Shown piece by piece: positions 4,737-40,726 of a stretch of 64,000 nt of DNA (positions are counted from its first letter, which is position 1; each line of letters begins with the position of its first letter). The position numbers were made by a program, and so were the translations under genes. Under the pieces are notes generated by a model. The model was not told where the DNA came from. It was given only the letters and a program-made list of their open reading frames with translations, and ran no database searches. Origin of the DNA: Candidatus Micrarchaeota archaeon (GTDB taxonomy: Archaea; Micrarchaeota; Micrarchaeia; Anstonellales; Bilamarchaeaceae); contig JBGFRX010000005.1 of the NCBI GenBank assembly GCA_041694885.1, forward strand, positions 5,291 to 69,290, read 5' to 3'.

Positions 4737-4835
4737 GCTCCCATAGTCTAGGCCGGTCAAGGACATCGGACTCTCAATCCTGCCAAAAGCAGGAAGGGAA
4801 CTCCGAGAACTCGAGTTCAAATCTCGATGGGAGCG
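4737..4835 (+). tRNA. tRNA-Glu(CUC) carrying a 24-25 nt intron at the canonical 37/38 position of the anticodon loop
   Basis: Acceptor stem GCTCCCA/TGGGAGC + G73. D stem GTCT/GGAC. Anticodon stem TCGGA/TCCGA with loop CTCTCAA interrupted by 'tcctgccaaaagcaggaagggaa(c)', which contains the hairpin cctgc-caaaa-gcagg. T arm TCGAG-TTCAAAT-CTCGA. Upstream T-rich TATA-like 'tttattatt' at about -32; downstream T tract. Confidence 0.65.
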
Positions 4836-12690: not shown

Positions 12691-14412
12691 ATGCGGCGGC
12701 TTTTCTTTGCATTATTCATCTTGGCCAATGCGGCCTTCGCGCTCTACCAGTTTAATATTTCGCTCTCGCGTACCGGCAACATATCCATAGCAGACAGTTA
12801 TCCGAACTCTGCGCCGAACCTCATGTTTTACAGGAACGGGGAACTCTATTTTGCGGACCCGGGCGCCCCAGGCGTATTCAGGTACAAAGACAACGAGACG
12901 CGCCTTCTTTCCGGTGGGTTTTCGCAGCCGCTCGGCGTCTATGTGGACGCGGATGGCACGGTGTATGTGGCAGACGAAGGCAACGGCGTGATAAGGCGTT
13001 CCCCGTATAAAATAATATATAAGTATGCTGCGCCGCACGGAATCTATTTCTTCAACAGCACATTTTACACTACGGACTATCGCAACGGAAAGCTGCTCAT
13101 GATAGCTGAAGATGGTATATTCACTTCGTACTTTGGTTCGAACGGCACACTGAACGGCAACTTCCAGAGGCCGGAAGACCTGCAGATATTCAACAATATG
13201 GTTTACGTGGCTGACGCAGGAAACGGAAGGATAGAGGCATACTCGCTGAATTTCACCTATCTGAAAACGTACGGAAGCGGAAGCGGCAACCTGACGCTCG
13301 TCTATCCCATGGGGATCTTCGTTGACGAAAATTACGTATATGTTGCGGATTCCCAAGGCAACAAGGTCGTGTTTTACACTCGGGATGGTTATCCCGTATT
13401 CGCATATTCCATAAACGATCCGCGCGATGTCGTGATGGCAGAAGGCCGTTTTTATATCTCCCAGGGCCAAAACTCCATCATAAGCATTTTCAACATTTCG
13501 ATCCGCGAACCGCCCTATTATGTCAAGCCGGTTTTCGAGTCGCTCGAGGCCGGATTTTCCAACTATGCTGGCTACGCAGGGCTCGCGCAGGCGTTGAATG
13601 TTTCCTACAACGCCACCATTGGAAGCGAATGGAGCAATGCGAAATTCGCATTCGATATCGGGAATTACGGCGAGGCGTTCTACAAAGCCATGGCGCTGAA
13701 TCAGAGCAACATCACATCGCTTAACGCGGACCTGAAGGCAGCACTATCGTCCCAGCTCAATTCACTATCCCAAAATTCATCTGCGAAGGATGCGATAGAG
13801 GAGCTCGTGCAGCAGGGGAATTATTCCGGCGCATATTCGCTGTTTCTTTCTTCCCCGCAGATAAGCCGAAGCGCAGTTAACGCGTCCAACGCGGCGTCGC
13901 CCAACATCACTCTGCTGGACGTTTCCGTGCTCGAGAGCCGCCTCGCAGAGGCGAAGCGCCTGATTTCCAATTACCGCATGAACGCGGGCGTTTCGGCAAT
14001 AGAGGGTGCAGTAAGGGACGCGGCAGGGAATTCAAGCGCATACGATTCCGCACTGCTCATGCTCGATGCGCTTGACGAGAAAATCAACCTCTGGGCATAC
14101 AAGATAAACACCGCACAGGAAAAAATATCGAAATTGCAAAAAGGAATCCAGGGCAAGGAGCTCTTTGCGGACTATTCCAGGGCAGCGCAATACCTGCAGA
14201 ACGCGACCCTGCTGCTTTATTCCGAGCCGGAAAAGGCGGCGCAGCTTGCAGAAGCGGGCATTCTCGAGGCGCAAAAGGCAAGAGACAGCGCTTCGCTCCT
14301 TTTCATTGCCGTCACAGCGCTTGCGCTTTTGGCGCTTGCCCTGCTCGCGCTTTTCCTCAAAGACCACCTCATTCCGCCTAAGCAGAAATACCATTTCTCG
14401 AGGAAGGAATAA
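12691..14412 (+). CDS. Secreted NHL-repeat beta-propeller surface protein. It has a signal peptide, a C-terminal TM anchor and many N-glycosylation sequons.
   Basis: N-terminal 'MRRLFFALFILANAAFA'. Repeated 'YVAD(E/A/S)GN(G/K)xI' NHL units. At least 17 N-x-S/T sequons. C-terminal 'LLFIAVTALALLALALLALFL' helix followed by basic residues. Confidence 0.6.
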   Translation: MRRLFFALFILANAAFALYQFNISLSRTGNISIADSYPNSAPNLMFYRNGELYFADPGAPGVFRYKDNETRLLSGGFSQPLGVYVDADGTVYVADEGNGVIRRSPYKIIYKYAAPHGIYFFNSTFYTTDYRNGKLLMIAEDGIFTSYFGSNGTLNGNFQRPEDLQIFNNMVYVADAGNGRIEAYSLNFTYLKTYGSGSGNLTLVYPMGIFVDENYVYVADSQGNKVVFYTRDGYPVFAYSINDPRDVVMAEGRFYISQGQNSIISIFNISIREPPYYVKPVFESLEAGFSNYAGYAGLAQALNVSYNATIGSEWSNAKFAFDIGNYGEAFYKAMALNQSNITSLNADLKAALSSQLNSLSQNSSAKDAIEELVQQGNYSGAYSLFLSSPQISRSAVNASNAASPNITLLDVSVLESRLAEAKRLISNYRMNAGVSAIEGAVRDAAGNSSAYDSALLMLDALDEKINLWAYKINTAQEKISKLQKGIQGKELFADYSRAAQYLQNATLLLYSEPEKAAQLAEAGILEAQKARDSASLLFIAVTALALLALALLALFLKDHLIPPKQKYHFSRKE

Positions 14413-14469
14413 GTCAACTACCTCTGATTTGCAAAAGTTCAAGGTTTTCCCATTTCAGCGATTTCGCGA

Positions 14470-14572
14470 TTTAATTTCCGTCCTTTTCGCGTGAAGTCGC
14501 GAATAGCGAGGCCTGCATGATGGGACAAACAACCATCTGCTGACGTGAGGTGGAGGAATTATAAACTCTTAC
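14470..14572 (+). repeat. Copy A of a roughly 103-bp promoter-containing module. Its inverted partner is at 40531-40633, with about 7 mismatches.
   Basis: 'atttaatttccgtccttttcgcgtgaagtcgcgaatagcgaggcctgcatgatgggacaaacaaccatctgctgacgtgaggtggaggaattataaactctta' aligns to the reverse complement of 40531-40633. It ends in the TATA-like 'attataaa' 30-70 nt upstream of the DsrE-like gene. Confidence 0.85.
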
Positions 14573-14593
14573 TCCGATTTCAATCAAAGGTAG

Positions 14594-14944
14594 TTGACAG
14601 CAAATTGGATTATGATTTGTTCAGGTGTTATGATGAAATTGACAGTAATAATAAGCTCGGGCGACTCGGAGAATGCATGGAACGCATTCCGTTTTGCGAA
14701 CCTGGCGCTTGGGAAAGGAGACGAGGTGAAGGTCTTCCTCCTAAACAGCGGGGTGGAGTGCCTCGAGAATAAAGGGAAATACGAAACAAAAACCCTATCG
14801 GAACAATTCGAGGAAAAGGGAGGTAAAATCCTCGCGTGCAGAACGTGCGCGAAAAGCAGGAATATGGGCAATGTCTGTGAAATCTCGAATATGGAAACGT
14901 TATATAATCTGATACGCGAAAGCGAGAGAACAGCTTATTTCTGA
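14594..14944 (+). CDS. DsrE/DsrF-like (YchN-fold) small sulfur-relay-type protein. The probable true start is MKLTVII at 14633.
   Basis: About 103-aa core 'MKLTVIISSGDSENAWNAFRFANLALGKGDEVKVFLLNSGV...ILACRTC' matches the DsrE/DsrF family architecture. Confidence 0.5.
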   Translation: MTANWIMICSGVMMKLTVIISSGDSENAWNAFRFANLALGKGDEVKVFLLNSGVECLENKGKYETKTLSEQFEEKGGKILACRTCAKSRNMGNVCEISNMETLYNLIRESERTAYF

Positions 14945-14973
14945 ATTTGCAAGCCGATTGCAAGTGAAAAAAT

Positions 14974-16134
14974 ATGAGAAAGGTTACGATTATAGGGGCA
15001 GGAATGACGAAGTTCGGCGAGCACTGGGAGCGGGGCTACCGCGAGCTCGTAATAGAGGCGGGAATTATGGCGATAGAGGATGCGGGCCTTCAGGGAAACG
15101 AAATATCAGCCGGATACGTGGGCTGCATGGCTTCAGGCAGCTTGATAGGCCAGGAGCACGCTGGTGCCTTGATTGCTGACCAGATAGGCATCAATCCCAT
15201 TCCGGTCACAAGAGTGGAGGCAGCGTGCGCTTCAGGAGGAGTCGCATTAAGACAGGGCTACTTGGCTGTCGCGAGCGGAATGCACGACTTCGTGGTCGTA
15301 GGAGGCGTGGAAAAAATGAATGATTTGGATACCAATGCGGTTTCAAATATTCTAGGAGGCGCAGGAGACCAGGAATGGGAACTCTTTTTGGGCGCGACCT
15401 TCCCAGGGCTCTACGCCCTGATGGCTAAAAGGCACATGCACGAATTCGGGACAACTGAAGAAATGCTTGCCTCTGTTGCCGTGAAGAACCACGAGCACGG
15501 CTCGCGCAACCCATATGCCCAGTTCCAGAACAGGATTACAATGGATACAGTGATGAAATCCAAAATGGTCTCGGCTCCACTCAAGATGTTCGACTGTTCT
15601 CCCATTACAGATGGAGCTGCTGCCGTTGTTTTGGCTCCCTTGGAAATCGCCAAAAAATACAGCGAACAGCCAATAGAGATTGCTGCGAGCGCACAGGCAT
15701 CAGATACTATTGCTTTGCACTCGCGCGAAAAACTCACTGAAGTGAAGGCAACGAAAATAGCGGCTCAGAAGGCGTACGAAATGGCGAAGATAAAGTCGAA
15801 AGACGTTGATGTTTGCGAGGTGCACGACTGCTTCACCATCGCTGAAGTGATGGCGATAGAGGATTTGGGCTTCTTCAAAAAAGGTGAAGGGGGGAAAGCG
15901 TCCCTGGAAGGGAAAACCGCACTGGGCGGAGAAATTCCGACAAATACTTCCGGCGGCCTTAAAGCAGCTGGCCATCCAGTAGGCGCGACAGGGATAAAGC
16001 AAGCAGTGGAGCTCACTTGGCAATTGCGCGGAAAGGCGGAAGGAAGGCAGGTTGCTGATGCGGAAATCGGCCTTGCGCACAACGTGGGGGGAAGCGGTGC
16101 TACTGCAGTAGTCCATATCTTCAGGAATGCATAG
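14974..16134 (+). CDS. Archaeal thiolase (acetyl-CoA C-acetyltransferase / SCP-x-type)
   Basis: Thiolase fold with active-site Cys region '[13 protein letters not shown]' and C-terminal '[18 protein letters not shown]'. Confidence 0.85.
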
Positions 16135-16277
16135 AGCTATGGGACAATGACGCTTGCAGAGATAGCCTGAATTTACAGGCAGTTTGGACACAATGATGCC
16201 ATAAGAGTCATCAGGATGAAGAATGTCCTGCTCATGGCATCTGAACTGGAGGAGCCGAAAGCGCAGAAGGTAAAAAC

Positions 16278-16679
16278 ATGAAGGAAAGCATCCCGTTGAC
16301 CTGGCGAAGGATTCCGGAAAGGTACCGGCTGAAGGGGAACAGGTGCGCGAACTGCTCCATATATTATTTCCCTCCGCGCATAGTGTGCCCAAAATGCAGG
16401 AGAAAGGGCAAGCTCGAAACGCATTACTTCAAAGGCACAGGAAAGGTTTATTCATTTACCGAGATAAGCAGCCCTGCGACCGGCTTTGAGGAGCAGGTTC
16501 CATACGTATTTGCGATAATAGAAATGGACGAAGGGGCGCGCATAACCGGGCAAATCGTGGATGCGCGCAACGAAGACGTGAAAATAGGGAACAAAGTCGA
16601 AACAGTGTTCAGGAAAATCCAGAGCGAAGATCCGGAAGGGCTCATACATTACGGGTTCAAATTCCGACTGGTGAAATGA
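16278..16679 (+). CDS. DUF35 OB-fold/zinc-ribbon protein, the usual partner of archaeal thiolase/HMG-CoA synthase
   Basis: 'CANCSIYYFPPRIVCPKCRRKG' zinc ribbon followed by an OB fold; immediately downstream of the thiolase. Confidence 0.8.
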   Translation: MKESIPLTWRRIPERYRLKGNRCANCSIYYFPPRIVCPKCRRKGKLETHYFKGTGKVYSFTEISSPATGFEEQVPYVFAIIEMDEGARITGQIVDARNEDVKIGNKVETVFRKIQSEDPEGLIHYGFKFRLVK

Positions 16680-16756
16680 TGACGTGGTAAAATGAGTATG
16701 CAAAAATAAAAGTTCTCAACAAAAAGAAGCGATAGGCACCATATCTTTAAAAATGG

Positions 16757-17038
16757 GTGGTTTATTTGGCCAAAGTGTACATAAAGAACGAAGGAAAAAC
16801 AGTGGAACTTCCTGATGGGAGCAATTTGGTTGATTTGGAGGGGAAAAGCAACGTGATTTTCGCATGCAAGGTTGGCACGTGCGGCGCGTGCATCGCCGCC
16901 ATTGTGAACGGTGCGGAAAACCTCGCTTCACCCACCGAAGTAGAAAAAATCTACTTAGACAATTTCGCTCCAGGGCAGGGCAAGCGGCTTCTCTGCCAGA
17001 CAGTGATAAAGAAAGGGGAGATTACAATAGAATATTAA
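16757..17038 (+). CDS. Small [2Fe-2S] plant-type ferredoxin-like protein
   Basis: Cys pattern 'CKVGTCGAC...LLC' (C-x4-C-x2-C...C) within a roughly 90-aa beta-grasp-sized protein. Confidence 0.5.
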   Translation: MVYLAKVYIKNEGKTVELPDGSNLVDLEGKSNVIFACKVGTCGACIAAIVNGAENLASPTEVEKIYLDNFAPGQGKRLLCQTVIKKGEITIEY

Positions 17039-19967: not shown

Positions 19968-21482
19968 ATGGCAATTGCGAAACTTGGCGCATATCCTGAC
20001 TTGAGGCAGCTCAAGACAAAGGCAGTGCAACGGATTGAAACCAACATGAATAGATATTTGGGAAAACCATTCTTCAAATTCTTCGAGAATTTGCCGAAGC
20101 GGCGGCAGAGCGGCAAGAAGAAAAACGGGAAACTGACAGCAGACACGTTCCTGCTCAAAGTCGATGCGAAGCTGGGCGAGGGCGCCATGGACGCAGCAAA
20201 TGCGGCAAGGGGCGTGATAGGAAACCACCTCAAATTATGCCGGCTCGGGAACAAGGAAACGAATAAAATAGATTCCGACCTGGAAAAAATAATCGGCGTA
20301 ATGACAGACGTGCTGACAGCGCGCGAGCTCGGCCTGCTGCAGGTCGTAGGGAACAAGCTGAACCTCAAAGTGATGGACAAGGGCCCTGGCGTCCGCCAGC
20401 TCATCTATTCCGCAGAGCGCGAGGAGGAGGTGCGCGACCTCATTTCAAAATACCGCGTCCCGACTTTTTGGGAGATGGCAAGAGCTGCGCTCAGGCGTAT
20501 ATTGCAAAGTAAAAAAGGACGCGAGGCAACACGGTCAGCAATGGATGGTGCGGTGGGTCCCGAAGCTGCAGAGTCATTGCCCAAAGGAGCAGAAGAAACG
20601 ACAAGCATAATTCCAGGACGCTTCGCCCGGGCAGCGAAAAGAGCAGCTGTTTTTGCAGTTGCAAGTGCCGCTTTTGTAGTGCTTTCTGGGATCATTGCTT
20701 ATATTACATCCCGTTCGTTGGAAGATTATATGCACGAACCAAAGGTAGCTCAGGAGAGCAATGAAGGCGGCAGGCAGCCCTTGCACAAGGAAGAACAGAT
20801 AACTCCAGCAACTCAGCAGGGGAATGCTGGCATAGAAGAAGCCGCGAAGGTGGAAGAGCCCTCGCTGCCGCAGCCAGCCACGCAACCCGCCTCTAAAAGT
20901 CAATTACATCCCAAGGTTTCAGAAGAGCCGGCCAAGGCGAAGATCGAAAAGATGGAAAAGAGCGTTGCGCTCCAAGAGGCGCAAACAAAAAGGCTGGATG
21001 GAGGAAACGAAGTAAAAAAAGCAGTCGCAGATGAAACGCGAAATGCCATGCCTTCGCAGCCGGAGAAAGGAGCGCCTCCTGTGGAAGAATCCAAAGCAAA
21101 AGACGCGGTCAAACCGGAAACGCAAAAAACCGTCCGGACCGAAGAGCGGAAAAAAGCACCGCAGGAAATTCGCGACGAGGAGCGTGAGAAGGCGGAAATT
21201 TACGCGGCGGTGAAGAGTGGGAAGGACTTTATGCACGACCTCAATGAAATGGCGAAGGAGGACGAGGGGCTGCGCACTTTGTACAATTACATAAGGGCTT
21301 ATTTCACAGCGGAGAGTGAAAGCGAAACCGGATTCGTGGCTTCAGCGCACCAGCAGCACCTGGCCGGCTTCATAATCAAAGGAAAAGAGAACGGCGATGG
21401 CATCCAGTTCATGTTGAGGCGGCTCGAACTCACGTACAAAGGAGCTCCGGAAAAATACAAAAAACAACTAAAAAACGACTGA
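19968..21482 (+). CDS. Hypothetical membrane-anchored protein of about 504 aa with a long Lys/Glu/Ala/Pro-rich low-complexity region. The start is moved from 19935 to 19968 because of promoter position.
   Basis: The TATA-like 'ctttatataaa' at 19925-19935 overlaps the first ATG of the tracked ORF, so the Met at 19968 (MAIAKLGAYPDL) fits a leaderless transcript. One TM helix, 'AVFAVASAAFVVLSGIIAYI'. Charged low-complexity stretch at residues 260-430. Confidence 0.45.
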   Translation: MAIAKLGAYPDLRQLKTKAVQRIETNMNRYLGKPFFKFFENLPKRRQSGKKKNGKLTADTFLLKVDAKLGEGAMDAANAARGVIGNHLKLCRLGNKETNKIDSDLEKIIGVMTDVLTARELGLLQVVGNKLNLKVMDKGPGVRQLIYSAEREEEVRDLISKYRVPTFWEMARAALRRILQSKKGREATRSAMDGAVGPEAAESLPKGAEETTSIIPGRFARAAKRAAVFAVASAAFVVLSGIIAYITSRSLEDYMHEPKVAQESNEGGRQPLHKEEQITPATQQGNAGIEEAAKVEEPSLPQPATQPASKSQLHPKVSEEPAKAKIEKMEKSVALQEAQTKRLDGGNEVKKAVADETRNAMPSQPEKGAPPVEESKAKDAVKPETQKTVRTEERKKAPQEIRDEEREKAEIYAAVKSGKDFMHDLNEMAKEDEGLRTLYNYIRAYFTAESESETGFVASAHQQHLAGFIIKGKENGDGIQFMLRRLELTYKGAPEKYKKQLKND

Positions 21483-24400
21483 TATCAGAGCCTCGATTTC
21501 CGAAACTATCTCCTTTTCCTCATCGCTGAGCGCATCGCTCTTCTTCTTCCATTTCTCCAGTTCCGCTTTTGTGATGTAAACGAGGAGCGCATCGCCTTCC
21601 CTCACATCGCTGCCAAGAATTATCTCATCAACTGAAATGGCGACCTGCGTGCCCTTCTTTGCCTCCGCAAGCGATTCTTTCTCCTTCTGTATCGTTTTAA
21701 CTTCGCCCAAGACCCTTCCATCCAGGTTCATGAGGCGCACATGTGGCCTTAATTTTCCGGCAAGAACTTCCACCCCGAAAATAGCCGGCTTACTCACGCG
21801 GAAGAAACAATTGGGTAGCGCCCTTATGCGGCAGGGCCAGGACATCTTCTCAAACACCTGCTTTTTTTCCCTTTCCCTTTCCTCCGCCTTCCATTCCTCG
21901 TACCTGTCCAGAAGCTGATAGACAATATTGCTGTAGATTATCTGCGCTCCTCCTTCGTCCCCTGCTGTCTTTGCATCAGGAAGCACCTGCACATTGAACG
22001 CGAGCACAGCGCCTAAATATTTGTCCTGCGCAGCAACCGTCGCAGCGAGCAGCGCGTCTCCTTTGGTTACATTGCCAACATTCGCCGCCTTCACCGGTAC
22101 GTTCGCATCCCTGAGGAGCTTGACTATCGCCTCCACGCTGCCCAAGCTATCCGCCTTCACCACCACTCCCAAACCGGCGCTCTCGAAAATTATCCCTTTC
22201 ATGTGCGCCTCTATCTCCTTCCTGTCTTTTTCATAGTTCTTTGCGACAATGAGAGGGGAGCCGCTCACCGCATCCTCGAGTCCGGGAGCTGCGATTTTTA
22301 CTCCTGCAGCAGCCACGAGCCGCTCCGCCTTCCTGAACTTCTCCTTTGCGCCTCTTATGTTCGGCTCGAGCAGCGCGCGTATTTTGGTTTTCTTCACTCC
22401 TGCTCTGGAGAGGAACACAATTTCGTCGCCCTCCACGAGTACCCCGTCGTAAATTATGACGTCCACAGTTGGCCCGAGCCCTTTCTCCTCTTTGACCTCC
22501 ATCACGCTGCCTTTTGCAGGGCTTTCGGGATCAACGTGCAGCTCCTTTTCCAGAAATTTCTGGCTGAGCCCTGCTATAAGAAGAAGAAGCTCTGCAAGCC
22601 CCTCGCCCGTCTTCGCGCTCACAGGCACTATCCCGACTTGCTTCGTGAAATTCTTTACCCTGTCAAAACGTTCGGAATCGAAGCCGTATTCGGAAAGTTT
22701 CCCCATCAACCCGTATATCCTTTCATCAACATTGTTTTGCGTACTCTCTGACTGCTTTGCGAGCGATTCGAGGAACGACTCCGTTGCCTGCGATTTCCAT
22801 CTGTCAACCAGATCGACCTTGTTCGCGGCGATGATGAAGGGCGTTTTCGCGTTTTTCAGTATCCTTATGCTCTCTATGGTTTGGGGCTGGAATCCCTGTG
22901 CAATATCCACTACGACTATCGCCATGTCTGCTATGCTTCCCCCCCTCTCACGCAGATTCGTGAACGCCTCGTGGCCCGGCGTGTCTATGAAAAGTATGCC
23001 CGGAACCATGAGCTTTATTTTCATCCTTTCCGCTACTGGTTTGGAAACCGCCTCTATATTCTCGCGCGCCACATAGCTCGCGCCTATCATCTGGGTTATC
23101 CCACCTGCCTCCTTCCCCGCCACACCGGTGCCCCGAACTGCATCGAGAAGGCTGGTGTTGTGCGCGAAAATCCGGTCTGCTACGAAATTGTGGTGCTCCG
23201 GAACCGTGAAATCGTAGACGTAGTCTTTGGATTCGGCATGAACAATTTCCGAAATGCGCACTGCCTGCACGTCCGAGCCGGAGCAGAAACGCGAAATGTT
23301 TTGGAGGCGCGCACGAACGAGTGCCCGGCACTTTCCGGAGTTCGCGCAAAAGTCCGCACCCGTAGCCGTTAGCGAGAATTGCCCATTTTTCATTTTCACG
23401 AGCCCATCCGAATAGAACGACCGGAGTTGATTCACCGTCCAGACCCAGGGAAGCCCGCTCTCTGCCGCAGCTTCTTTTGAGGATAGCGGCCGGCATTTTA
23501 GGGATTTGAGCAGCCGGATTTTCTTTTTCAGAGCGTTGCGGTATTCGGCCGAGGACAAAAGGCGCGTGAGATTTTCCTTAAATGAAGACAGGTATGCCCT
23601 CGAAACAAACGGATATTCCTCGTACTTGCCCTGATAAGGTATTCCGACCTCCATTTTCGCAAGACCAGGCAGATTTCGGATTTCTCTGATGCTGGCGCCG
23701 CTTATGGGGCTAATGTCGCTGTTCCTGTTCGTGCGGGCCTTTTTTAGGAAACGCTCCAGTCTCGCCCCTTTCTTCAGGGACCTTATGGGAATCGCCCTGC
23801 GGAATTTTTCAATGTCCTCGATTCCGCTTATTCTTAGGCTGTAATATCCATTCTTGGAGTAATAAGCAGCCCTTATGCCGAACCTCAGGAGCGCCAGGGA
23901 AAGGTCCTCAACAAACAGTCTGCTCGCGCTCGTAATCTCGAGCGCGCCCTGGTTGCTCGCATAGCCGTCGGTGTCGAATACGCCGGCTATGAAATTCGCG
24001 AGCAGGGAGTCGTCACCTGTCTTCACAAGGTCCGGAATTCGGATGGTCCGGCTTTTTTGCCTTGCGGGAAAATCGAAAATCTCGTTGAGCATGCGGTTGA
24101 GCGTCCTGCCTCCCCTGTGGATGGCCGCTGTGACTGTCCGCTCGCGCCTGACCACGACCTGTACTCCGAACGCTTTCTTCATCGCGTCCGCATACGCAGA
24201 CAGTATCTCCGGGTCGTTCTTGCACAGCTTCGCGACGCCGCCCACGCCGTCGCCGAAAAGCAGCCCGAGCGCATACCCAAGTTCATCCCGCAATTGCGGC
24301 ACAGGGAGCCAGGGGCCCGTGTGCCCTGCCCTCCACTTGTGGGTGGAATTCTTCAATTCGGTCATTTTCCTCACTGAAGCACCACGGGTGCGCGGAAGCC

Positions 24401-25271
24401 AGTGTTGTTCACCAATAGGCATGGCTTCAGTTGTCCATGAGAACGGCGCTCCGTTCTGGGGGTACAAAGAACGATGCGTCGTTCTTTGGCATGGGGGAGC
24501 GCACCCTACGCTATCGGGATGTGGCTTCCGCCTAAAGCCATCAATATCGGAAGCCACGGGCTCCTTCAGCTTTGCTGAAGGGATTGCGGACGAAGTCCGC
24601 AGGATTAGCCCGTGGTGCTTCACAAACCCGCACCCGAGGACGCCTCCGGCTGTCCTTAGCTCGGCCATCTGGAATCTTCCGTTGCTCAAGCAGTCCCGGA
24701 ATCCTGCTGGAAAATCCGCTGGATTGGACAGATAGAGGCCGTGCATTCCGGAAGTGAAATCCTCATCATCAATCCTCGCGACGAACCCTTCCATCGCGGA
24801 CAGCCTTTCAAAGAACCGCTTTTCTGCACGGGCTCTCTGAGTTCGGTTTTTTGTGTACCTCGGAGTGAGCACGAACTCTCCTTCCTTCAGAAAACGGCCT
24901 TCCTTCTCGCTGATTCCGCCTGCTTCATTCACTACGAAGAATTTGTGCTCCGGGGTCGCCTTTATCGCGCTGCCGTCGGAGAGCATTACTGACAGGAGGC
25001 TCTGTGTCTGCCTTTTCCAGACGTGGGAAACTCCTGCCTCGACAATCTCGCATTCCTTTGAGAAAGAGTAGAGTTTTGCATTTTCATTTGAGATGTCTGT
25101 AACCCAGCCGTCACCGCACCACTCGCCTTTTTTGTCTGAAGTCAGCATCTCGTAGAGCTCGTCGGCCCTCATAATCCGGCCATCCGGCAACGGTATGAGA
25201 GTGTCTCCGCTGATGCACTTGCCGTGATCGACGTGCCCAAGCACTGCTATTATTGGAGATCTGATAAGCAT
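21468..25271 (-). CDS. infB: Translation initiation factor aIF5B (IF2 homologue), interrupted by a large intein at the P-loop
   Basis: Exteins read 'AVLGHVDHGK|...|TSLLDAVRGT' then G-domain motifs 'DTPGHEAF' and 'NKVD', domain II and the C-terminal domain. Total 1267 aa versus about 590 aa expected. Confidence 0.9.
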   Translation of the reverse strand: MLIRSPIIAVLGHVDHGKCISGDTLIPLPDGRIMRADELYEMLTSDKKGEWCGDGWVTDISNENAKLYSFSKECEIVEAGVSHVWKRQTQSLLSVMLSDGSAIKATPEHKFFVVNEAGGISEKEGRFLKEGEFVLTPRYTKNRTQRARAEKRFFERLSAMEGFVARIDDEDFTSGMHGLYLSNPADFPAGFRDCLSNGRFQMAELRTAGGVLGCGFVKHHGLILRTSSAIPSAKLKEPVASDIDGFRRKPHPDSVGCAPPCQRTTHRSLYPQNGAPFSWTTEAMPIGEQHWLPRTRGASVRKMTELKNSTHKWRAGHTGPWLPVPQLRDELGYALGLLFGDGVGGVAKLCKNDPEILSAYADAMKKAFGVQVVVRRERTVTAAIHRGGRTLNRMLNEIFDFPARQKSRTIRIPDLVKTGDDSLLANFIAGVFDTDGYASNQGALEITSASRLFVEDLSLALLRFGIRAAYYSKNGYYSLRISGIEDIEKFRRAIPIRSLKKGARLERFLKKARTNRNSDISPISGASIREIRNLPGLAKMEVGIPYQGKYEEYPFVSRAYLSSFKENLTRLLSSAEYRNALKKKIRLLKSLKCRPLSSKEAAAESGLPWVWTVNQLRSFYSDGLVKMKNGQFSLTATGADFCANSGKCRALVRARLQNISRFCSGSDVQAVRISEIVHAESKDYVYDFTVPEHHNFVADRIFAHNTSLLDAVRGTGVAGKEAGGITQMIGASYVARENIEAVSKPVAERMKIKLMVPGILFIDTPGHEAFTNLRERGGSIADMAIVVVDIAQGFQPQTIESIRILKNAKTPFIIAANKVDLVDRWKSQATESFLESLAKQSESTQNNVDERIYGLMGKLSEYGFDSERFDRVKNFTKQVGIVPVSAKTGEGLAELLLLIAGLSQKFLEKELHVDPESPAKGSVMEVKEEKGLGPTVDVIIYDGVLVEGDEIVFLSRAGVKKTKIRALLEPNIRGAKEKFRKAERLVAAAGVKIAAPGLEDAVSGSPLIVAKNYEKDRKEIEAHMKGIIFESAGLGVVVKADSLGSVEAIVKLLRDANVPVKAANVGNVTKGDALLAATVAAQDKYLGAVLAFNVQVLPDAKTAGDEGGAQIIYSNIVYQLLDRYEEWKAEEREREKKQVFEKMSWPCRIRALPNCFFRVSKPAIFGVEVLAGKLRPHVRLMNLDGRVLGEVKTIQKEKESLAEAKKGTQVAISVDEIILGSDVREGDALLVYITKAELEKWKKKSDALSDEEKEIVSEIEALISVVF
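23157..25217 (-). mobile_element. 687-aa intein with LAGLIDADG homing-endonuclease domain, inserted after GHVDHGK of aIF5B
   Basis: Starts 'CISGDTLI' and ends 'FAHN' before extein Thr. LAGLIDADG blocks 'LGLLFGDGVGG' and 'FIAGVFDTDGYAS'. Confidence 0.85.
24374..24621. other. Highly structured, compositionally aberrant in-frame insert inside the intein linker, bracketed by a perfect 14-bp long-range inverted repeat
   Basis: 'tgaagcaccacggg' (24374-24387) is the exact reverse complement of 'cccgtggtgcttca' (24608-24621). Internal hairpins: gaagcca...tggcttc, gaacgg-cgct-ccgttc, tggcttccg...cggaagcca, cttcagc-tttg-gctgaag, gcggac-gaa-gtccgc. The encoded peptide segment is P/H/R/W/T-rich low complexity. 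Confidence 0.5.
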
Positions 25272-26475: not shown

Positions 26476-27306
26476 ATGAATTCTGGAAAATTTATCTTCG
26501 CGATACTATCTTTCATCTTTCTCTCGGCATTTGTATTGGTTGCCGGCTGCGCGCAACAGCAGCCCGCGGGCGCGAACGAAAGCGCGCCCCTCAGGTTCAA
26601 AGACAGCGCGCTCGTGGACTACATACTTATCGTGGAAATACCCGATAGCGCAGCAAACGGAAGCAGGAAAGCGGTATACGATACGTCCATCGGGGCAATT
26701 GCTAGAGAGAACGGCATCTACAATGAAAAAAGGGCATACGGGCCGCTTGCAGTAGAAATGCAGAACGACAACGGCCTTCTTCCAGGATTCACCCGTGCGC
26801 TTGTCGGGATGAAGGAAGGCGAAAACAAGACGTTCACACTGAACCCGGAAGAGGGCTATGGCATTTACGATTCCAGCAAAGTATTCTCAATAAGCCGGTT
26901 CTATAACATGAGCAGGTACGAGGACATTCCGCTCGCGTATTTCGAGATGAGAAACCTTTCCAGTGCGATCGGCACAAACCTTTCGGGCAAGTTGGGCGTT
27001 GCGCAGGTCGTAAACTCCACGAACGAAACAGTTACGCTGAAATATTTCCCTGCAGAGAACACCACGTTCGTGTTCAACGGGCTTCCACAAAGAGTCGTTT
27101 TCTTTGACAACGACAGCATACTGATCGAGATAACCGTGCAGCAGGGAACGAAATACATAACTGAATCACCTTCAGGGGATAAGTTCAGCGTTATTGCAAC
27201 AGCGATGAACGAAACCGGCATAATGTTCGACGCGAACAACCCCCTCGCAGGCAAGGAGCTCACATTCACGGTGTTCGTGAGGAAAATAGGGAAAGCGCAG
27301 GAGTGA
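26476..27306 (+). CDS. Secreted or lipid-anchored FKBP-type peptidyl-prolyl cis-trans isomerase with C-terminal extension
   Basis: Signal/lipobox 'LVAGCAQQ'; FKBP core 'GLLPGFTRALVGMKEGENKTFTLNPEEGYG'. Confidence 0.55.
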   Translation: MNSGKFIFAILSFIFLSAFVLVAGCAQQQPAGANESAPLRFKDSALVDYILIVEIPDSAANGSRKAVYDTSIGAIARENGIYNEKRAYGPLAVEMQNDNGLLPGFTRALVGMKEGENKTFTLNPEEGYGIYDSSKVFSISRFYNMSRYEDIPLAYFEMRNLSSAIGTNLSGKLGVAQVVNSTNETVTLKYFPAENTTFVFNGLPQRVVFFDNDSILIEITVQQGTKYITESPSGDKFSVIATAMNETGIMFDANNPLAGKELTFTVFVRKIGKAQE

Positions 27307-30300
27307 GTGGTGGAAGAATGACGGACAAGATAAGGAAAAGGGACGGAAGTGTAGTTGCGTTCGACGCTGGCAAGATAAAAGAGGCAATATGGAAGGCAGT
27401 GCAGGCGGTCGGCGGAAAGGACATGGAGGAATCGGACAGGACCGCTGAATTCGCGGTTAAGCTCCTGAACGAGAAATTCGCCAAAGAAATACCTTCAGTA
27501 GAGGATATACAGGACATCGTGGAAAAGGCGCTCATAGAGCGCGGGCATGCGACCACTGCGAAGGCGTACATACTCTACAGGCACAAAAAAAGCGTTGAAC
27601 GGGAAGTTAAGGGCATAATGGGCGTGAAGGATGACCTCAAGCTCTCGCTCAATTCCATACAGGTCCTGGAGCGCCGCTACCTACTCAAGGACGATTCAGG
27701 AAAGATAATGGAAACACCTGGCGGGATGTTCAGACGGGTCGCGAAGTTCATCGCCTCAGGGGAAAAGGCGTTTGGAGGGGACGAAGAGACGGTGAAGGAC
27801 TTCGAGGAGGCGTTTTACGAGGCGATGATAAAGCTGGAATTCATACCCAATTCCCCGACACTGATGAACGCAGGAACAGGGCTCGGCCAGCTCTCAGCAT
27901 GCTTCGTTCTCGGCGTCACGGACGACTTGGACGACATATTCGAGACAGTGAAGAACACTGCATTGATACACAAGAGCGGTGGAGGCACCGGCTTTTCCTT
28001 CTCTTATCTGCGCCCCAAGGGCGACTTCGTGAAAAGCACTGCCGGCGTGGCGAGCGGACCAATTTCGTTCATGACCATCTTCGACGTGGCGACTAACGTG
28101 GTAAAGCAGGGTGGCAAGCGCAGAGGCGCGAACATGGGCGTGATGGAAATATGGCATCCTGACATCGAAGAGTTCATCACAGTGAAGCAGACGCCGGGCG
28201 TGCTCGAGAACTTCAACATCAGCGTGGGTGTGGACAACAGGTTCATGAAGGCGCTCGAAGAGGATAGCGAATATGACCTCATAAACCCAAGGACCGGCCA
28301 GCAGGTGAGAAAGGTGAAGGCAAAGGGCCTGTTCAACCACATCGCCTATTCCGCGTGGAAGTCAGCAGAGCCAGGCATTCTTTTCATGGACACTATAAAC
28401 AATGCCAATCCAACTCCAAAAGAAAGGATCGTTGCGACTAATCCTTGCATTTCAGGAGACACGCTTGTGTGCACGAACGAAGGGCTCGTAGAGGCGTCCA
28501 AGGTACACAATCCTCACCACGTAATCGGCTCCGACGGCAAATACCACCCTGTGCGCTGGGCTGGCCAGACCGGGGAAAAGGAGCTTTTCCTCGTGAAGAC
28601 GAATGCGGGCTACGAAGCCAAGGCAACTGCGGAGCACAAATTCCTCACTGAAGGCGGATGGAAAGAGGTGCGCGAACTAACTTCCGAAGACCGGCTTGTG
28701 CTCCAGAAACAAGGAAAATTCGGAGCAATGCGCATTGACAGGGAGATGGCGCTCGCGCTCGGCTGGCTTGTTAGCTGCAACCATATGTCCAAAGACGCAC
28801 AGGACGTGATATTTCATTTCGGGGAAGAGGAGAAGGCGGAGCTCCTCCCTGTGTTCAGGGAATATTTCGACCGCATAAACGGAGTGAAAGTGAAGCCGCA
28901 GAAAAGCAGGACAGGAACGCGGCTTAAATATTCGTCCAAAATAGCTGCGAAATTCCGTGAATTCGGGTTCATGCACCTCAAAGCGCGCGAGAAGGAAGTG
29001 CCTTCAGCTGTCTTTTCAATGAACGAGGAATCAGTGGGGAATTTCCTTTCCGCATTGTTCGGCGCAAGCGGCTCTGTGCAAAGCAACAGCGAAAAGGAAG
29101 TAAGCATACGCCTCTCATCCAGCTCCATCAAGCTGCTCAAGCAGGTGCAGGTGCTTCTCCTTCAGTTCGGCATCGTTTCCAGGGTGTACGAAAGAAGGCG
29201 GGGCGGGCATGCGAAAATCCTTCCTGATTCGAAAAGACAAAGCAAGGAGTATTCATGCAAGGCCCAGCACGAACTGATGATAAACAGGGCGAGCATGTTC
29301 CTGTTCATGAACAAGGTTGGTTTTGCGGTTTCATCCAAAAACGAAAAATTCGCGGAGCTTAAGCCCAAAAAGGCATATTCGGATGATATGGATAGTTCGG
29401 TTGCCTCTGTCACGAGCGCAGGATTCGCGCCTGTATACGACCTCACCGAGCCGCAAACGCATTCATTTTCCGCGAATGGCCTCATAGTGCATAATTGCGG
29501 CGAAGTCCCGATGCCCAATTATGAGTCATGCAACCTCGCGAGCATAAACCTCGCGAAATTCGTGGAAATCGACTGGAGCAGGAGCGACTGGAAAAGGAAG
29601 ATCAACTGGAAGCGCCTGCGCTACATAGTCCGGCTCGGCGTGCAGTTCCTCGACAACGTCATCGAGCTGAACAAATACCCGATTCCGAAAATAAAGGAGA
29701 AGACGCTCTACAACAGGCGCATAGGGCTCGGCGTGATGGGCTTCGCGAAGATGCTCTTTAAGATGGGGATAAAGTACGATTCCGACGAGGCGTTTAGGAT
29801 AGGGGAAGAAGTGATGAAATTCATAACCGAGGAGGCGAGAAAGATGAGCCATGAGCTCGGAAGGGCGCGCGGCTCCTTCCCCGGCTTCGCGGACTCCGTG
29901 TGGGCGAAGAAATACGATGGGATGCGCAATGCGACCGTGACCTCGATAGCTCCAACAGGGACCATTTCGATGATTGCGGACACTTCAAGCGGTATAGAGC
30001 CGGTGTTCTCGCTCGCGTACGTGAAGATAGTGATGGATGGCACCCGGCTCTATTATTCAGACGACACGTTCGAGCACGTGCTCAAGGTAAGGGGGCTGTA
30101 CTCGCCAGAGCTGATGCAAAAGGTAATAGAAAGCGGGAGCATCGCAGGGATGGAGGAAATCCCGAAGGAAGTGACGGAAATATTCCGGGTCGCGTACGAC
30201 GTGCGGCCAGAGGCGCACGTGCGCATGCAGGCCGCGTTCCAGAAATACACGGACCTGGCGGTGAGCAAGACCATAAACCTGCCTCCGGACGCCACAGTCG

Positions 30301-39410: not shown

Positions 39411-39558
39411 GGAAGTGGAAGAAGCGAGCAGCTCGCGGCTGCGCGTCCGTTTTTGTGCAGAATCAGATCCTTTGAAAATGGTTTCACCTGTGCTGCTGTT
39501 ACAGTTCGGCGTATAGTTGGACGTAACCGCTTAAAAATCTACCGCGAAACTTTTTAAG

Positions 39559-39606
39559 ATATTGTGCACCCAACCCGCGAGAACTGCAGGTTTTCCGTCA
39601 AAGATT
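39559..39606. repeat. Copy 2 of the 48-bp direct repeat. It overlaps the last three codons and the stop of the 7-TM paralogue B gene.
   Basis: Identical 48-mer. In this copy the 'tca' within 'gtcaaagatt' is read on the minus strand as the TGA stop of the membrane-protein gene, which uses a different frame from aspS. Confidence 0.9.
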
Positions 39607-40506
39607 TTTCAAATTCATCCAACCTGAAAAGGAGCGTTCTGTGACTTTCCCTGAATGAGCTGATGAGGCCTTTTTCTGCCTTACGACCCTCGTACTCCTG
39701 TTGGTGCTGAGGAAGCGTGCTATAGGCGTGTAGAACGCCTCGGCACGCATGGTCGCGAACACGAAGAACATTATTGTAGTGGTAAGCACGACGTACAGCA
39801 TGTTCTGGAAGATGCGCGCCAGCGTGGTTATCTCGTTGTGCCCGAACAACACGAGCGCTGTTCCCATTATATCTATGTTTATGGTGAGCAGGAACAGTAT
39901 ACCGATGAGCGAGTAGAGCGCAGAAGTGAGTATGAACGTCTTCAGCGAGAACGTGTTCCTGGTGACTTCATTCATATTCGAGATGTTCTTCCATGTTTTG
40001 AGCAATATAACCAGTGTCAGGAGCGAAAGTACGAGGAACAGCAGCGCGTCAAAATTTACCTCTATTATCAATTCGATATGATACAGCGCATAGAGCGGAA
40101 CAAACATCGCAAGGAGCACGAGAACGGTTTCGCGCACCACATGCTCTGCGCGCTCGGGCGTTTTGCTCTCCCATGTGGAGGTGAAAAGATATACAAAATA
40201 AATCGCCGCGATTCCGGACGCGAGGTGCATGTAATGCCAGAAATGCCCTGCCGGAGGCATGTTGGTGTGCTCGAACAGCTCGAATATGCCTATGCTGCTT
40301 ATGAAAGCGAACACCATTGCGAGCCGCATCCAGCGCACGAATAGTTTGCTGTAATGCATTATCACGCTCCTCAGGCCCAAAATACCTGCAATTATCAGGA
40401 ATATTATGAACACGATGTGCATGTCGAACGCGCTTATTACGAATGAATCAGTATCCTCCAGATCCGGAAACAAGGGGATTATGCCCTGAGTCTTCCCGGT
40501 CGCCAT
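39598..40506 (-). CDS. 7-TM membrane protein, paralogue B of the F-E-H...F-W-H-x-M-H family
   Basis: See paralogue A. Its own promoter lies inside the 103-bp module (40531-40633), with TATA about 32-39 nt upstream of the ATG. Confidence 0.5.
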   Translation of the reverse strand: MATGKTQGIIPLFPDLEDTDSFVISAFDMHIVFIIFLIIAGILGLRSVIMHYSKLFVRWMRLAMVFAFISSIGIFELFEHTNMPPAGHFWHYMHLASGIAAIYFVYLFTSTWESKTPERAEHVVRETVLVLLAMFVPLYALYHIELIIEVNFDALLFLVLSLLTLVILLKTWKNISNMNEVTRNTFSLKTFILTSALYSLIGILFLLTINIDIMGTALVLFGHNEITTLARIFQNMLYVVLTTTIMFFVFATMRAEAFYTPIARFLSTNRSTRVVRQKKASSAHSGKVTERSFSGWMNLKNL

Positions 40507-40530: not shown

Positions 40531-40633
40531 TAAGAGTTTATAATTCTTCCACCTCACGTCAGCAGATGGTTGTTTGTCCCACCATGCAGGCCTCGCTATT
40601 CGCCACTTCACATGAAAAAGACGAAAATTAAAT
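40531..40633 (-). repeat. Copy B (inverted) of the roughly 103-bp promoter-containing module
   Basis: The reverse complement aligns to 14470-14572 with about 7 mismatches; the 56-nt core 'gcgaatagcgaggcctgcatg(a/g)tgggacaaacaaccatctgctgacgtgaggtgga' has a single mismatch. Confidence 0.85.
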
Positions 40634-40726
40634 GGATTTTTTACGTGCCGCGTCATTTATTAAAATTTTGCACGCATCTTATCATACATCGCTGAAACCA
40701 TGCGACTTAGTTAACAGGGTGGGAAA

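What the first reader, a model, noticed from the sequence alone, without database searches (positions are those of the whole stretch)
14470..14572. About 103-bp promoter module present twice in inverted orientation 26 kb apart, linking a DsrE-like gene and a 7-TM paralogue
Positions 14470-14572 match 40531-40633 in inverted orientation with about 7 mismatches over 103 nt. The internal 56-nt core, 'gcgaatagcgaggcctgcatgRtgggacaaacaaccatctgctgacgtgaggtgga', has a single mismatch.

Each copy ends in the TATA-like 'gaattataaactctta'. Copy A places it 30-70 nt upstream of the DsrE-like gene start (14594/14633). Copy B places it 32-39 nt upstream of the ATG of the 7-TM membrane protein paralogue B (40506, minus strand), which is the spacing for a leaderless archaeal promoter.

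The conserved core upstream of the TATA contains an imperfect dyad, TGATGG-N9-CCATCT, which looks like a transcription-factor site. So two otherwise unrelated genes, a small sulfur-relay-type protein and a His/Met-motif membrane protein, carry the same unusually long conserved upstream sequence. This suggests either a shared regulon or a mobile promoter cassette.

Paralogue A (34291) shares only the 'ttataaactc' TATA core.
Basis: seen in the sequence. Interest (0 to 1): 0.65.

Follow-up and report, generated by a model that had tools for sequence, protein, structure and literature searches.

The report
Duplicated 103-bp archaeal promoter segment
A 103-base stretch that carries an archaeal-type promoter occurs twice in this small (Micrarchaeota) archaeal genome, in front of two unrelated genes; it is most likely a recently copied promoter, one copy sitting at the edge of a gene that has been flipped in this lineage, which is a known and fairly ordinary way for genes to acquire promoters.

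Summary
Positions 14469-14571 (+) and 40531-40633 (-) match at 96/103 bases, with sharp ends and no third copy in the window.

Each copy ends in a TATA-like box (TTATAAA):
- In copy B it starts 37 nt upstream of the 7-TM-B start codon, the same geometry as about ten other promoters in the window.
- In copy A it starts 74 nt upstream of a DsrE-like gene that heads a conserved DsrE-thiolase-DUF35-ferredoxin cluster.

The module is absent upstream of the orthologues in every relative I could fetch. Sub-patterns gave no hit in any public DNA collection, and there is no Rfam match.

In relatives the 7-TM gene lies aspS(-)|7TM(+)|FBPase(+). In the window it is inverted in place. Module B sits at one junction, and an exact 48-nt duplicate of aspS coding sequence sits at the other.

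Best reading: a two-member "putative mobile promoter" family, meaning a promoter-bearing segment copied within one lineage, probably during or after this rearrangement.

A shared regulator site cannot be tested. A structured RNA on the gene-sense strand has only weak support (p about 0.03-0.18 under realistic nulls). A 17-bp inverted repeat that brackets copy A alone gives it an inverton- or MITE-like shape, also untested.

Interest is low to moderate.

The parts
14469..14571 (+). Module copy A (103 nt), oriented towards the DsrE-like gene
   Evidence: The copy is identical in the independent assembly L002.
40531..40633 (-). Module copy B (103 nt), oriented towards 7-TM-B. It lies between the 7-TM-B start and the FBPase promoter.
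14559..14565 (+). TATA-like box TTATAAA of copy A, preceded by the purine-rich GGAGGAA. It starts 74 nt before ATG 14633.
   Evidence: Comparable long spacings occur at genes 19935, 57724 and 40727.
40537..40543 (-). TATA-like box TTATAAA of copy B, preceded by GGAAGAA. It starts 37 nt before ATG 40506, with a GGTG Shine-Dalgarno-like motif at 40515-40512.
   Evidence: The geometry matches other window promoters, whose boxes start 29-42 nt before the ATG.
14633..14944 (+). DsrE-like gene (103 aa, PF02635). It is the first gene of a DsrE-thiolase-DUF35(ChsH2 OB)-ferredoxin cluster running to 17038.
   Evidence: The cluster is conserved in L004/L005.
39598..40506 (-). 7-TM-B gene (302 aa, no Pfam hit). 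It is inverted in place relative to L001/L007, and the last ~31 codons have no counterpart in the orthologue.
39559..39606 (+). Exact 48-nt direct duplicate of aspS codons ~14-30 (the original is at 39322-39369). It lies at the junction on the 3' side of the inverted 7-TM-B gene.
   Evidence: (family D4).
14413..14429 (+). Left arm of a 17-bp inverted repeat (GTCAACTACCTCTGATT) that brackets copy A. It starts right after the stop codon of the NHL-repeat gene.
14582..14598 (+). Right arm of the 17-bp inverted repeat (AATCAAAGGTAGTTGAC), 16/17 complementary to the left arm, with 152 nt between the arms.
40655..40664 (+). FBPase TATA box (TTTATTAAAA). It resembles the box upstream of FBPase in L006 and lies ~20 nt beyond the distal end of module B.

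Best explanation
The module is a promoter-bearing piece of intergenic DNA that was copied once within this species' lineage. It now supplies the BRE/TATA promoter for two unrelated transcription units: the DsrE-thiolase-DUF35-ferredoxin cluster (copy A) and the 7-TM-B gene (copy B).

Shown:
- The repeat exists, has sharp ends, and occurs only twice in 64 kb.
- Its TATA box sits at promoter distance from both genes.
- It is absent from the orthologous positions in relatives.
- 7-TM-B is inverted in place relative to relatives, with the module at the junction next to its start codon and a 48-nt duplicated aspS fragment at the other junction.

Inferred:
- The inversion separated 7-TM-B from its former promoter. 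A remnant, CGAAAC-TTTTTAAG, may survive at 39545-39558.
- A copy of the DsrE-cluster promoter region was placed in front of the gene, either by the same replication or recombination accident that made the other junction, or earlier.
- Copy A looks closer to the ancestral state. At 5 of 7 differing sites A has G/C where B has A/T, the usual direction of mutational decay.
- The near-identity of the 73-nt proximal part may reflect recency, gene conversion, or selection on an upstream regulator site. If the last, the two units would be co-regulated.
For: - Repeat and statistics.
- Sharp boundaries, with no significant flank homology.
- Promoter geometry: TATA-like boxes start 29-42 nt before the ATG in about ten other window genes, several with GGTG at -12 to -6. 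7-TM-B has its box at -37 and GGTG at -9 to -6.
- There is no room for another promoter in the 24 nt between module B and ATG 40506.
- Lineage restriction: the module is absent in L001, L003, L004/L005. The nhmmer profile is negative on 12 loci. There were 0 hits for three sub-patterns across genome, metagenome and viral collections and none in plasmids or phages.
- Rearrangement: L001 is aspS(-)|7TM(+)|FBPase(+). L007 has a 7TM C-terminus directly upstream of FBPase on the same strand. L006 and L009 have aspS|FBPase with no 7TM. The window has 7TM-B on the minus strand.
- 48-nt exact duplicate at the other junction.
- The pair fits the published class. PMP families are defined as >=50 nt at >=80% identity upstream of non-homologous CDSs; 68% of families have two members, with mean identity 92% (PMC3488235).
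- No Rfam family matches.
Against: - No transcription data exist, so promoter use is inferred from consensus and spacing only.
- The differences are not spread evenly: 5 of 7 fall in the distal 30 nt (p = 0.025). Six of 7 fall in base pairs of a common sense-strand fold without breaking any. Plain recent copying does not predict either pattern.
- The 48-nt junction duplicate is 100% identical while the module pair is 93%, so the two duplications may differ in age. The probability that none of the 7 differences would fall in the 48 nt is 0.07 by my own arithmetic, which is not decisive.
- The direction of copying is not established, and a third source copy elsewhere in the genome is possible. 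Only 64 kb of the genome could be examined.
- Relatives are about 75% identical in coding DNA, so neutral intergenic sequence would be unalignable anyway. Absence in relatives argues against a conserved functional element, not against an old origin.
- Copy B and the inversion rest on a single metagenome-assembled contig.
Confidence: 0.55

Rival explanations
1. Structured RNA on the gene-sense strand. The module is transcribed as part of a long 5' leader or as a small RNA and folds into a long imperfect helix (positions 4-26 with 73-93) that closes a hairpin (47-55 with 65-72). It would act as a cis-regulatory element shared by a biosynthetic cluster and a membrane protein, in a riboswitch-like or protein-binding-leader logic.
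For: - The consensus fold of the two copies has 29 pairs. Six of 7 differences lie in pairs, none is broken, and one pair changes on both sides (C-G to U-A at 10/87).
- The opposite strand accommodates none of the differences.
- Copy A folds better than its shuffles (z = -2.6).
- Simple random-mutation nulls give p of about 0.003-0.007.
- A BRE/TATA-like GCAAAA-TTTTAATAAA sits about 27 nt upstream of the first base of module B on the right strand.
Against: - With a null that matches the observed mutation spectrum and clustering, p rises to 0.03 (consensus fold) and 0.08-0.18 (fixed fold of copy A).
- Copy B alone does not fold better than its shuffles (z = -0.8).
- There is no Rfam match even at E <= 10.
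- There is no convincing promoter upstream of copy A.
- The element is not conserved upstream of the orthologues in relatives, unlike known riboswitches.
- Only two sequences exist, so covariation cannot be established.
Confidence: 0.13
2. Non-autonomous mobile element or invertible promoter. Copy A is part of a 186-bp unit (14413-14598) bounded by 17-bp inverted repeats. This unit would be either a MITE that carries an outward promoter, or an inverton whose 152-nt core is flipped by a recombinase to switch the DsrE cluster on and off. Copy B would be a fragment of the same element.
For: - A 17-bp, 16/17 inverted repeat brackets copy A and occurs nowhere else in the window. It forms the outer stem of the fold (z = -2.9).
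- By my estimate, the chance of such a repeat within a 220-nt spacer is about 1e-4 or less.
- The module's own ends are weakly complementary (TAATTTCC... with ...GGAATTA).
- The neighbouring locus shows a real gene inversion.
- Archaeal invertons exist but are barely studied: 12 putative invertons in 42 genomes (PMC10028968).
Against: - Copy B lacks the 17-bp repeats, the part a transposase or invertase would need.
- No target-site duplication is visible.
- There are only two copies in 64 kb and none in any collection.
- No transposase, integrase or invertase was found in the window, apart from an IS66-like fragment 6 kb away from copy B.
- The second assembly of the species has the same orientation.
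Confidence: 0.12
3. Shared regulon through a transcription-factor site. The conserved core upstream of the TATA box is kept by selection because one regulator binds it at both promoters, for example at GATGG-N9-CCATC.
For: - The proximal 73 nt carries 2 differences against 5 in the distal 30 nt.
- A dyad is present.
- Archaeal activators are known to bind upstream of BRE (general knowledge).
Against: - The dyad loses a position in copy B.
- The conserved stretch is several times longer than a binding site.
- No regulator gene is nearby.
- The element is absent at the orthologous promoters.
- This reading is compatible with the best explanation, and is a possible consequence of it, rather than a true alternative.
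Confidence: 0.12
4. Divergent mini-gene. On the opposite strand the same TATA box is followed after 22 nt by an ATG that opens a 21-codon frame, MVVCP(I/T)MQASLFATS(R/H)EKD(G/E)N. Its stop codon lies 2 nt from the distal end of the module, so the repeat unit would be promoter plus micro-ORF.
For: - The geometry fits a leaderless gene, and the unit's ends coincide with BRE and the stop codon.
- A T6 run follows the stop codon in copy B.
- There are 3 synonymous against 3 non-synonymous differences.
Against: - The frame is only 21 codons, too short for any homology search.
- An open frame of this length is expected by chance in one of six frames.
- Analogous ATGs opposite the DsrE TATA in L003 and L004 open unrelated 7- and 24-codon frames.
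- Copy A has no terminator-like run next to the stop codon.
Confidence: 0.05

Closest known systems
Putative mobile promoters (PMPs), Matus-Garcia, Nijveen & van Passel 2012 (PMC3488235)
   Same: Highly similar upstream sequence (here 103 nt, 93%) in front of non-homologous genes in one genome. It is a two-member family, like 68% of PMP families, and its identity is close to their mean of 92%. Conservation does not extend into the upstream gene. 'Random duplication mediated by recombination' is one of the four routes the authors propose.
   Different: This case is in a DPANN (Micrarchaeota) archaeon with a BRE/TATA promoter rather than a bacterial one. It is longer than the typical pair (mean 66 nt). 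One copy can be tied to a specific rearrangement: an in-place gene inversion with a second short duplication at the other junction.
Invertible promoters (invertons), e.g. Salmonella hin/fljB and the Bacteroides capsule promoters (PMC10028968)
   Same: Copy A is a promoter-containing segment of about 150 nt bracketed by 17-bp inverted repeats, directly upstream of the genes it would drive.
   Different: No invertase was found nearby, no second orientation has been observed, and copy B has no such repeats. Nothing shows that the segment flips.
Miniature inverted-repeat transposable elements that carry outward promoters (e.g. Correia elements; ERIC/REP-type repeats)
   Same: Short non-coding repeat in intergenic DNA, with imperfect terminal complementarity and a potential promoter at one end.
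   Different: Only two copies, no target-site duplication, no shared terminal repeats between the copies, and no cognate transposase.
Riboswitch or leader regulons that pair a biosynthetic operon with a membrane protein
   Same: The same long conserved sequence lies upstream of an enzyme cluster and of a membrane protein, with a predicted common fold on the sense strand.
   Different: No Rfam family matches, the element is not conserved in orthologous leaders, no promoter is evident upstream of copy A, and the structural support is weak.

Membership tests
Putative mobile promoter family (PMC3488235) | Alignment of at least 50 nt with at least 80% identity between upstream regions of two or more CDSs in one genome | tested here: met
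   103 nt, 93% identity. The module ends 24 nt before ATG 40506 and 61 nt before ATG 14633.
Putative mobile promoter family (PMC3488235) | The downstream CDSs are not homologous | tested here: met
   One is PF02635 (DsrE); the other is a 7-TM protein with no Pfam hit. BLASTP E = 1.0.
Putative mobile promoter family (PMC3488235) | The similarity is not part of a larger duplication that includes the upstream CDS, or of an IS terminal repeat | tested here: met
   Flanks show no significant homology. The upstream neighbours are an NHL-repeat gene and FBPase. No IS adjoins either copy.
Putative mobile promoter family (PMC3488235) | The sequence actually acts as a promoter | not testable with these tools
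   There is only a consensus match: a TTATAAA box with a purine-rich BRE position, and spacing like other genes in the window.
MITE | Terminal inverted repeats shared by all copies | tested here: not met
   The 17-bp repeats bracket copy A only. The module's own ends pair only imperfectly.
MITE | Target-site duplication and multiple dispersed copies | tested here: not met
   No direct repeat is visible at the edges. There are two copies in 64 kb and none in public collections. The rest of this genome could not be searched.
Inverton (invertible promoter) | A pair of inverted repeats flanking a promoter next to the regulated gene | tested here: met
   Met for copy A only: 14413-14429 and 14582-14598, 16/17 complementary, 152 nt between the arms.
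Inverton (invertible promoter) | Both orientations present in a population | not testable with these tools
   Only assemblies are available. L002 has the same orientation as the window.
Inverton (invertible promoter) | A site-specific recombinase encoded in the genome, often nearby | tested here: not met
   Pfam scans of 36 window proteins, most but not all of the roughly 54 predicted genes, found no recombinase. The rest of the genome was not seen.
Known RNA family (Rfam 15) | Covariance-model match | tested here: not met
   At gathering score only the two tRNAs match in the window. Around copy A nothing relevant appears at E <= 10.
Cis-regulatory RNA / riboswitch (generic) | Secondary structure maintained by compensatory change | tested here: inconclusive
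   Six of 7 differences are compatible with a common fold. Under a spectrum- and cluster-matched null, p = 0.03-0.18. Only two sequences exist.
Cis-regulatory RNA / riboswitch (generic) | Conservation upstream of orthologous genes in related species | tested here: not met
   Absent in L001, L003, L004/L005, with profile searches negative.
Archaeal box C/D sRNA | C box RUGAUGA and D box CUGA brought together by a terminal stem | tested here: not met
   Copy A has AUGAUGG and a CUGA 16 nt downstream. Copy B reads AUGGUGG, there is no terminal stem, and the cmscan hits to C/D families lie outside the module at E > 1.

The most novel reading that the evidence does not exclude
The module could be a lineage-specific regulatory device in a DPANN archaeon rather than a passive promoter copy. 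One form would be a structured sense-strand leader RNA that co-controls a thiolase/DUF35 (isoprenoid-entry) cluster and an orphan 7-TM protein. The other would be, at copy A, an invertible promoter bracketed by 17-bp repeats. That would be a chromosomal inverton in Micrarchaeota, linked to a locus where a whole gene has flipped.
Probability: 0.15. Interest if true: 0.6.

Novelty: new member of a known kind. Interest (0 to 1): 0.3.

Why it matters
If the reading is right, this is a clean example in an uncultivated DPANN archaeon of how a gene keeps being expressed after a rearrangement. A 1-kb gene is flipped in place and ends up behind a copy of another operon's promoter. The result ties two unrelated functions to near-identical control sequence.

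That is useful as a case study of promoter reuse in archaea, where such events have hardly been documented. It also gives a handle for predicting co-expression in an organism that cannot be grown. It does not reveal a new mechanism.

The unresolved extras (a possible RNA fold, and an inverted-repeat-bracketed promoter) would matter more, but they are not established.

Tried and rejected
- **Other copies in public DNA.** I searched for exact sub-patterns of 21-27 nt. All scans gave 0 hits: GACAAACAACCATCTGCTGACG in genome, metagenome and viral contigs; GCGAATAGCGAGGCCTGCATG in metagenome and viral contigs; CTGACGTGAGGTGGARGAATTATAAAC in genome contigs. blastn against plasmids and phages found no match. 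The source genome itself is evidently not in the searchable DNA collections, so the copy number in the whole genome is unknown.
- **Exact-protein look-ups.** Look-ups for DsrE, 7-TM-B and FBPase of the window mostly failed. Only the DsrE cluster was recovered, from a second assembly.
- **Known RNA families.** Rfam at gathering and permissive thresholds gave nothing. The box C/D idea was rejected because copy B breaks the C box.
- **tRNA or att-site origin.** There is no similarity to the two tRNAs or to anything else in the window.
- **Homology beyond the 103 nt.** An apparent upstream block (TGCAAAA-TT-AA) and a shared TTTCAGCGAT are not significant.
- **26-kb inversion between the two copies.** Flipping that segment would not recreate the gene order seen in relatives, so I rejected it as the explanation for the 7-TM-B orientation.
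- **7-TM genes next to DsrE in L004.** The two ~280-aa genes there are unrelated to the 7-TM family.
- **Regulator or recombinase in the window.** None was found.
- **Exact breakpoints of the 7-TM-B inversion.** Intergenic DNA is unalignable at this distance. A short inverted repeat, GATATTG/CAATATC, sits at the two junctions (pair I11) but is no better than 14 other chance pairs in the same 1.4 kb.

Full report
**Observation**

The repeat exists as described. The repeat finder gives arms 14469-14571 and 40531-40633, 103 nt, 93% complementary, 25,959 nt apart. blastn-short gives E = 1.7e-38. Sub-parts searched with up to three mismatches occur only at these two places, with none expected by chance.

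Read in the direction of the genes that follow, the seven differences are at positions 10, 15, 21, 22, 30, 52 and 87. The proximal 73 nt has two differences and the distal 30 nt has five.

The alignment stops abruptly on both sides. Anchored and local alignments of the flanks are no better than shuffles. A second assembly of the same species (L002, GCA_041695005.1, 99.97% identical over 9.8 kb) contains an identical copy A. Copy B is seen only in the window.

**Context**

Names attached to homologues place the organism in Micrarchaeota (DPANN).

- *Copy A.* It lies between an NHL-repeat gene (12691-14412) and a DsrE-family gene (PF02635, E = 3e-13). That gene's real start is ATG 14633, giving 103 aa like all 44 homologues. 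It is followed at short distance by a thiolase, a DUF35-type OB/zinc-ribbon protein and a ferredoxin. This order is conserved in L004/L005, where the DsrE stop and the thiolase start are 5 nt apart. Copy A therefore precedes an operon-like cluster, not a lone 'sulfur relay' gene.
- *Copy B.* It lies between the start of 7-TM-B (39598-40506, minus strand) and the divergent class V FBPase gene (40727, plus strand).
- *The 7-TM genes.* 7-TM-A (34291) and 7-TM-B are true but distant paralogues (24% identity, E = 2e-17). They have no Pfam or NCBIfam hit. A profile of the family finds only 22 representatives among 1.84 billion proteins.

**Is it a promoter?**

The module ends in GGAGGAA/GGAAGAA-TTATAAA-CTCTTA. 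I listed the upstream regions of the window's genes. About ten of them have a similar A/T box that starts 29-42 nt before the start codon, often with a GGTG ribosome-binding motif at -12 to -6 (for example genes 11153, 60462, 36673, 34291, 44018).

7-TM-B has its box at -37 and GGTG at -9 to -6, which is the local norm. The 24 nt between the module and its ATG leave no room for another promoter. DsrE has its box at -74 with AGGTG before the ATG. Spacings of 67-76 nt also occur at genes 19935, 57724 and 40727.

The promoter reading is therefore plausible for both genes, but it rests on consensus and spacing only.

**Relatives**

- *DsrE orthologues.* The orthologues at 74-79% protein identity (L003, L004/L005) have unrelated upstream DNA with their own TTATAAA box.
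- *7-TM-B orthologue.* The only one with an upstream region (L001, 59% protein identity) also lacks the module.
- *Profile search.* An nhmmer profile of the two copies finds nothing in 12 fetched loci (about 100 kb) or in the rest of the window.
- *Public collections.* Three sub-patterns gave no hit in the six scans run across the genome, metagenome and viral contig collections. blastn against plasmids and phages was also negative.

One caveat applies: at about 75% coding identity, neutral intergenic DNA would no longer align. The result argues against a conserved functional element rather than fixing the age of the sequence.

**The rearrangement**

Gene order around copy B is informative.

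| Locus | Gene order | Source |
|---|---|---|
| L001 | aspS(-), 7TM(+), FBPase(+) | |
| L007/L008 | last 15 codons of a 7TM-family gene (ISAFLSKASKGEKKE*) end about 50 nt before FBPase, same strand | |
| L006, L009 | aspS and FBPase adjacent and divergent, no 7TM between | |
| L011 | different neighbour | |
| Window | aspS(-), 7TM-B(-), module B, FBPase(+) | |

The whole 7-TM-B gene (orthologous from residue 3 to 271) is therefore inverted in place in the window's lineage.

At the junction beyond its 3' end lies an exact 48-nt direct copy (39559-39606) of aspS codons ~14-30 (39322-39369). The 7-TM-B reading frame runs about 31 codons past the end of homology into this new sequence. At the junction beyond its 5' end lies module B.

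The aspS promoter (reverse complement of 39531-39541) and the FBPase TATA (40655-40664) resemble those of L006/L001 by inspection. If so, the ancestral spacer survives on both outer sides. Just outside the left junction the sequence CGAAAC-TTTTTAAG (39545-39558) resembles L001's 7TM promoter CGAAAC-ATATAAAAA. This is a possible orphaned remnant, and the evidence for it is weak.

The simplest story is as follows. The flip cut 7-TM-B off from its promoter, and a copy of the DsrE-cluster promoter region now serves it. Short templated duplications at both junctions are what replication template-switching or illegitimate recombination produce. That is an inference, not a demonstration.

At five of the seven differing sites copy A has G/C and copy B has A/T. 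This is the usual direction of mutational decay and a hint that A is nearer the original. The junction duplicate is 48/48 identical while the module is 96/103. My own arithmetic gives a probability of 0.07 that none of the seven differences would fall in the 48 nt. The two duplications may or may not be the same age.

**Known class**

The pair satisfies the operational definition of a 'putative mobile promoter' family: at least 50 nt at 80% identity or more, upstream of non-homologous CDSs in one genome. Sixty-eight per cent of the 4,074 published families have two members, with mean identity 92%. Recombination-mediated duplication is one of the proposed routes (PMC3488235). DsrE and 7-TM-B are not homologous.

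**Things the simple story does not explain**

1. *RNA fold.* RNAalifold on the sense strand gives 29 pairs in which six of the seven differences sit. None breaks a pair, and one pair changes on both sides (10/87, C-G to U-A). On the opposite strand no difference lies in a pair. Against random mutants this looks unusual (p = 0.003-0.007). I then matched the null to the observed mutation spectrum and to the clustering in the first 30 nt. The p-value rose to 0.03 for the consensus-fold statistic and to 0.08-0.18 when the fold of copy A alone is used. Copy B alone does not fold better than its shuffles (z = -0.8). Rfam gives nothing. I treat a sense-strand RNA as possible but weakly supported.
2. 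*Inverted repeat around copy A.* Copy A, but not copy B, is bracketed by a 17-bp inverted repeat (14413-14429 and 14582-14598, 16/17) that occurs nowhere else in the window. It forms the outer stem of the local fold (z = -2.9). A promoter between inverted repeats is the shape of an inverton or of a MITE. However, there is no recombinase or transposase in the window apart from an IS66-like fragment at 33598-34188. There is no target duplication, no second orientation (L002 has the same one), and no such repeats at copy B. Archaeal invertons are known but rare in the data so far (PMC10028968).
3. *Opposite-strand mini-frame.* On the opposite strand the same TATA box is followed after 22 nt by an ATG and a 21-codon frame whose stop lies at the distal end of the module. 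The geometry is neat, but the frame is too short to test. Analogous ATGs in L003 and L004 open unrelated tiny frames.

**Verdict**

The finding is a real, non-random repeat. Its most likely nature is a duplicated promoter segment tied to a lineage-specific gene inversion, which makes it a new example of a known kind. The 'shared regulon' idea remains an untested possible consequence. The evidence does not show a transcription-factor site, a mobile cassette with its own machinery, or a functional link between DsrE and the 7-TM protein.

Noticed in passing
window 39598-40506 compared with L001:801-1631 and L007:1-48: The whole 7-TM-B gene is inverted in place between aspS and FBPase relative to two related lineages. 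Two other relatives have no 7-TM gene at this spot, so this gene is a variable, rearrangement-prone insert.
   Followed up: yes
window 39322-39369 and 39559-39606: Exact 48-nt direct repeat. The second copy is a fragment of aspS coding sequence (codons ~14-30) placed upstream of the aspS promoter. It abuts the 3' end of 7-TM-B, whose frame reads 9 nt into it. This is a rearrangement scar or, less likely, an assembly artefact.
   Followed up: partly
window 14413-14429 and 14582-14598: A 17-bp inverted repeat (16/17) brackets module copy A and 49 nt of extra sequence. The left arm starts at the base after the NHL gene's stop codon. The shape is inverton- or MITE-like, and the repeat is unique in the window.
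   Followed up: partly
window 34291-35127 and 39598-40506; P0002, P0167-P0187: The 7-TM family is very rare: 2 hits in the 5.8-billion-sequence word-indexed search and 22 representatives in 1.84 billion by profile. It has no Pfam or NCBIfam model. Conserved motifs are F-E-H...P...F-W-H-x-x-H, FSLK, and Y-A-P-I near the C-terminus. Its function is unknown.
   Followed up: partly
window 33598-34188: An IS66-family transposase fragment (196 aa, matching NCBIfam model positions 9-133 of 387) lies between gatC and 7-TM-A. The equivalent spacer in L006 has no such gene.
   Followed up: no
window 21468-25271 and 27303-30470: Both the aIF5B/IF-2 GTPase and the ribonucleotide reductase large subunit carry inteins with LAGLIDADG homing-endonuclease domains.
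   Followed up: no
window 14633-17038; L004:5137-7299: The DsrE-family gene is the conserved first gene of a thiolase / DUF35 (ChsH2-type OB and zinc ribbon) / 2Fe-2S ferredoxin cluster in several Micrarchaeota. This points to an acetoacetyl-CoA/isoprenoid-entry context rather than classical sulfur relay.
   Followed up: partly
window 14535-14469 (minus strand) and 40567-40633 (plus strand): A 21-codon open frame, MVVCP(I/T)MQASLFATS(R/H)EKD(G/E)N, lies on the strand opposite to the downstream genes. Its ATG is 22 nt after the shared TATA box and its stop lies at the distal end of the module.
   Followed up: partly
window 4737-4835: This tRNA match spans 99 nt against a 71-position model, which suggests an intron-containing tRNA gene.
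   Followed up: no
window 39553-39564 and 40517-40528: A short inverted repeat (core GATATTG / CAATATC) lies exactly at the two junctions of the inverted 7-TM-B segment. This is possible microhomology used in the rearrangement, but it is statistically no better than other chance pairs in the region.
   Followed up: no
L003:3811-3820 and L004:3310-3408: Runs of N interrupt the intergenic DNA of the relatives' contigs, 205 nt upstream of the L003 DsrE gene and next to the unrelated 278-aa gene in L004. Small parts of those spacers could therefore not be inspected.
   Followed up: no
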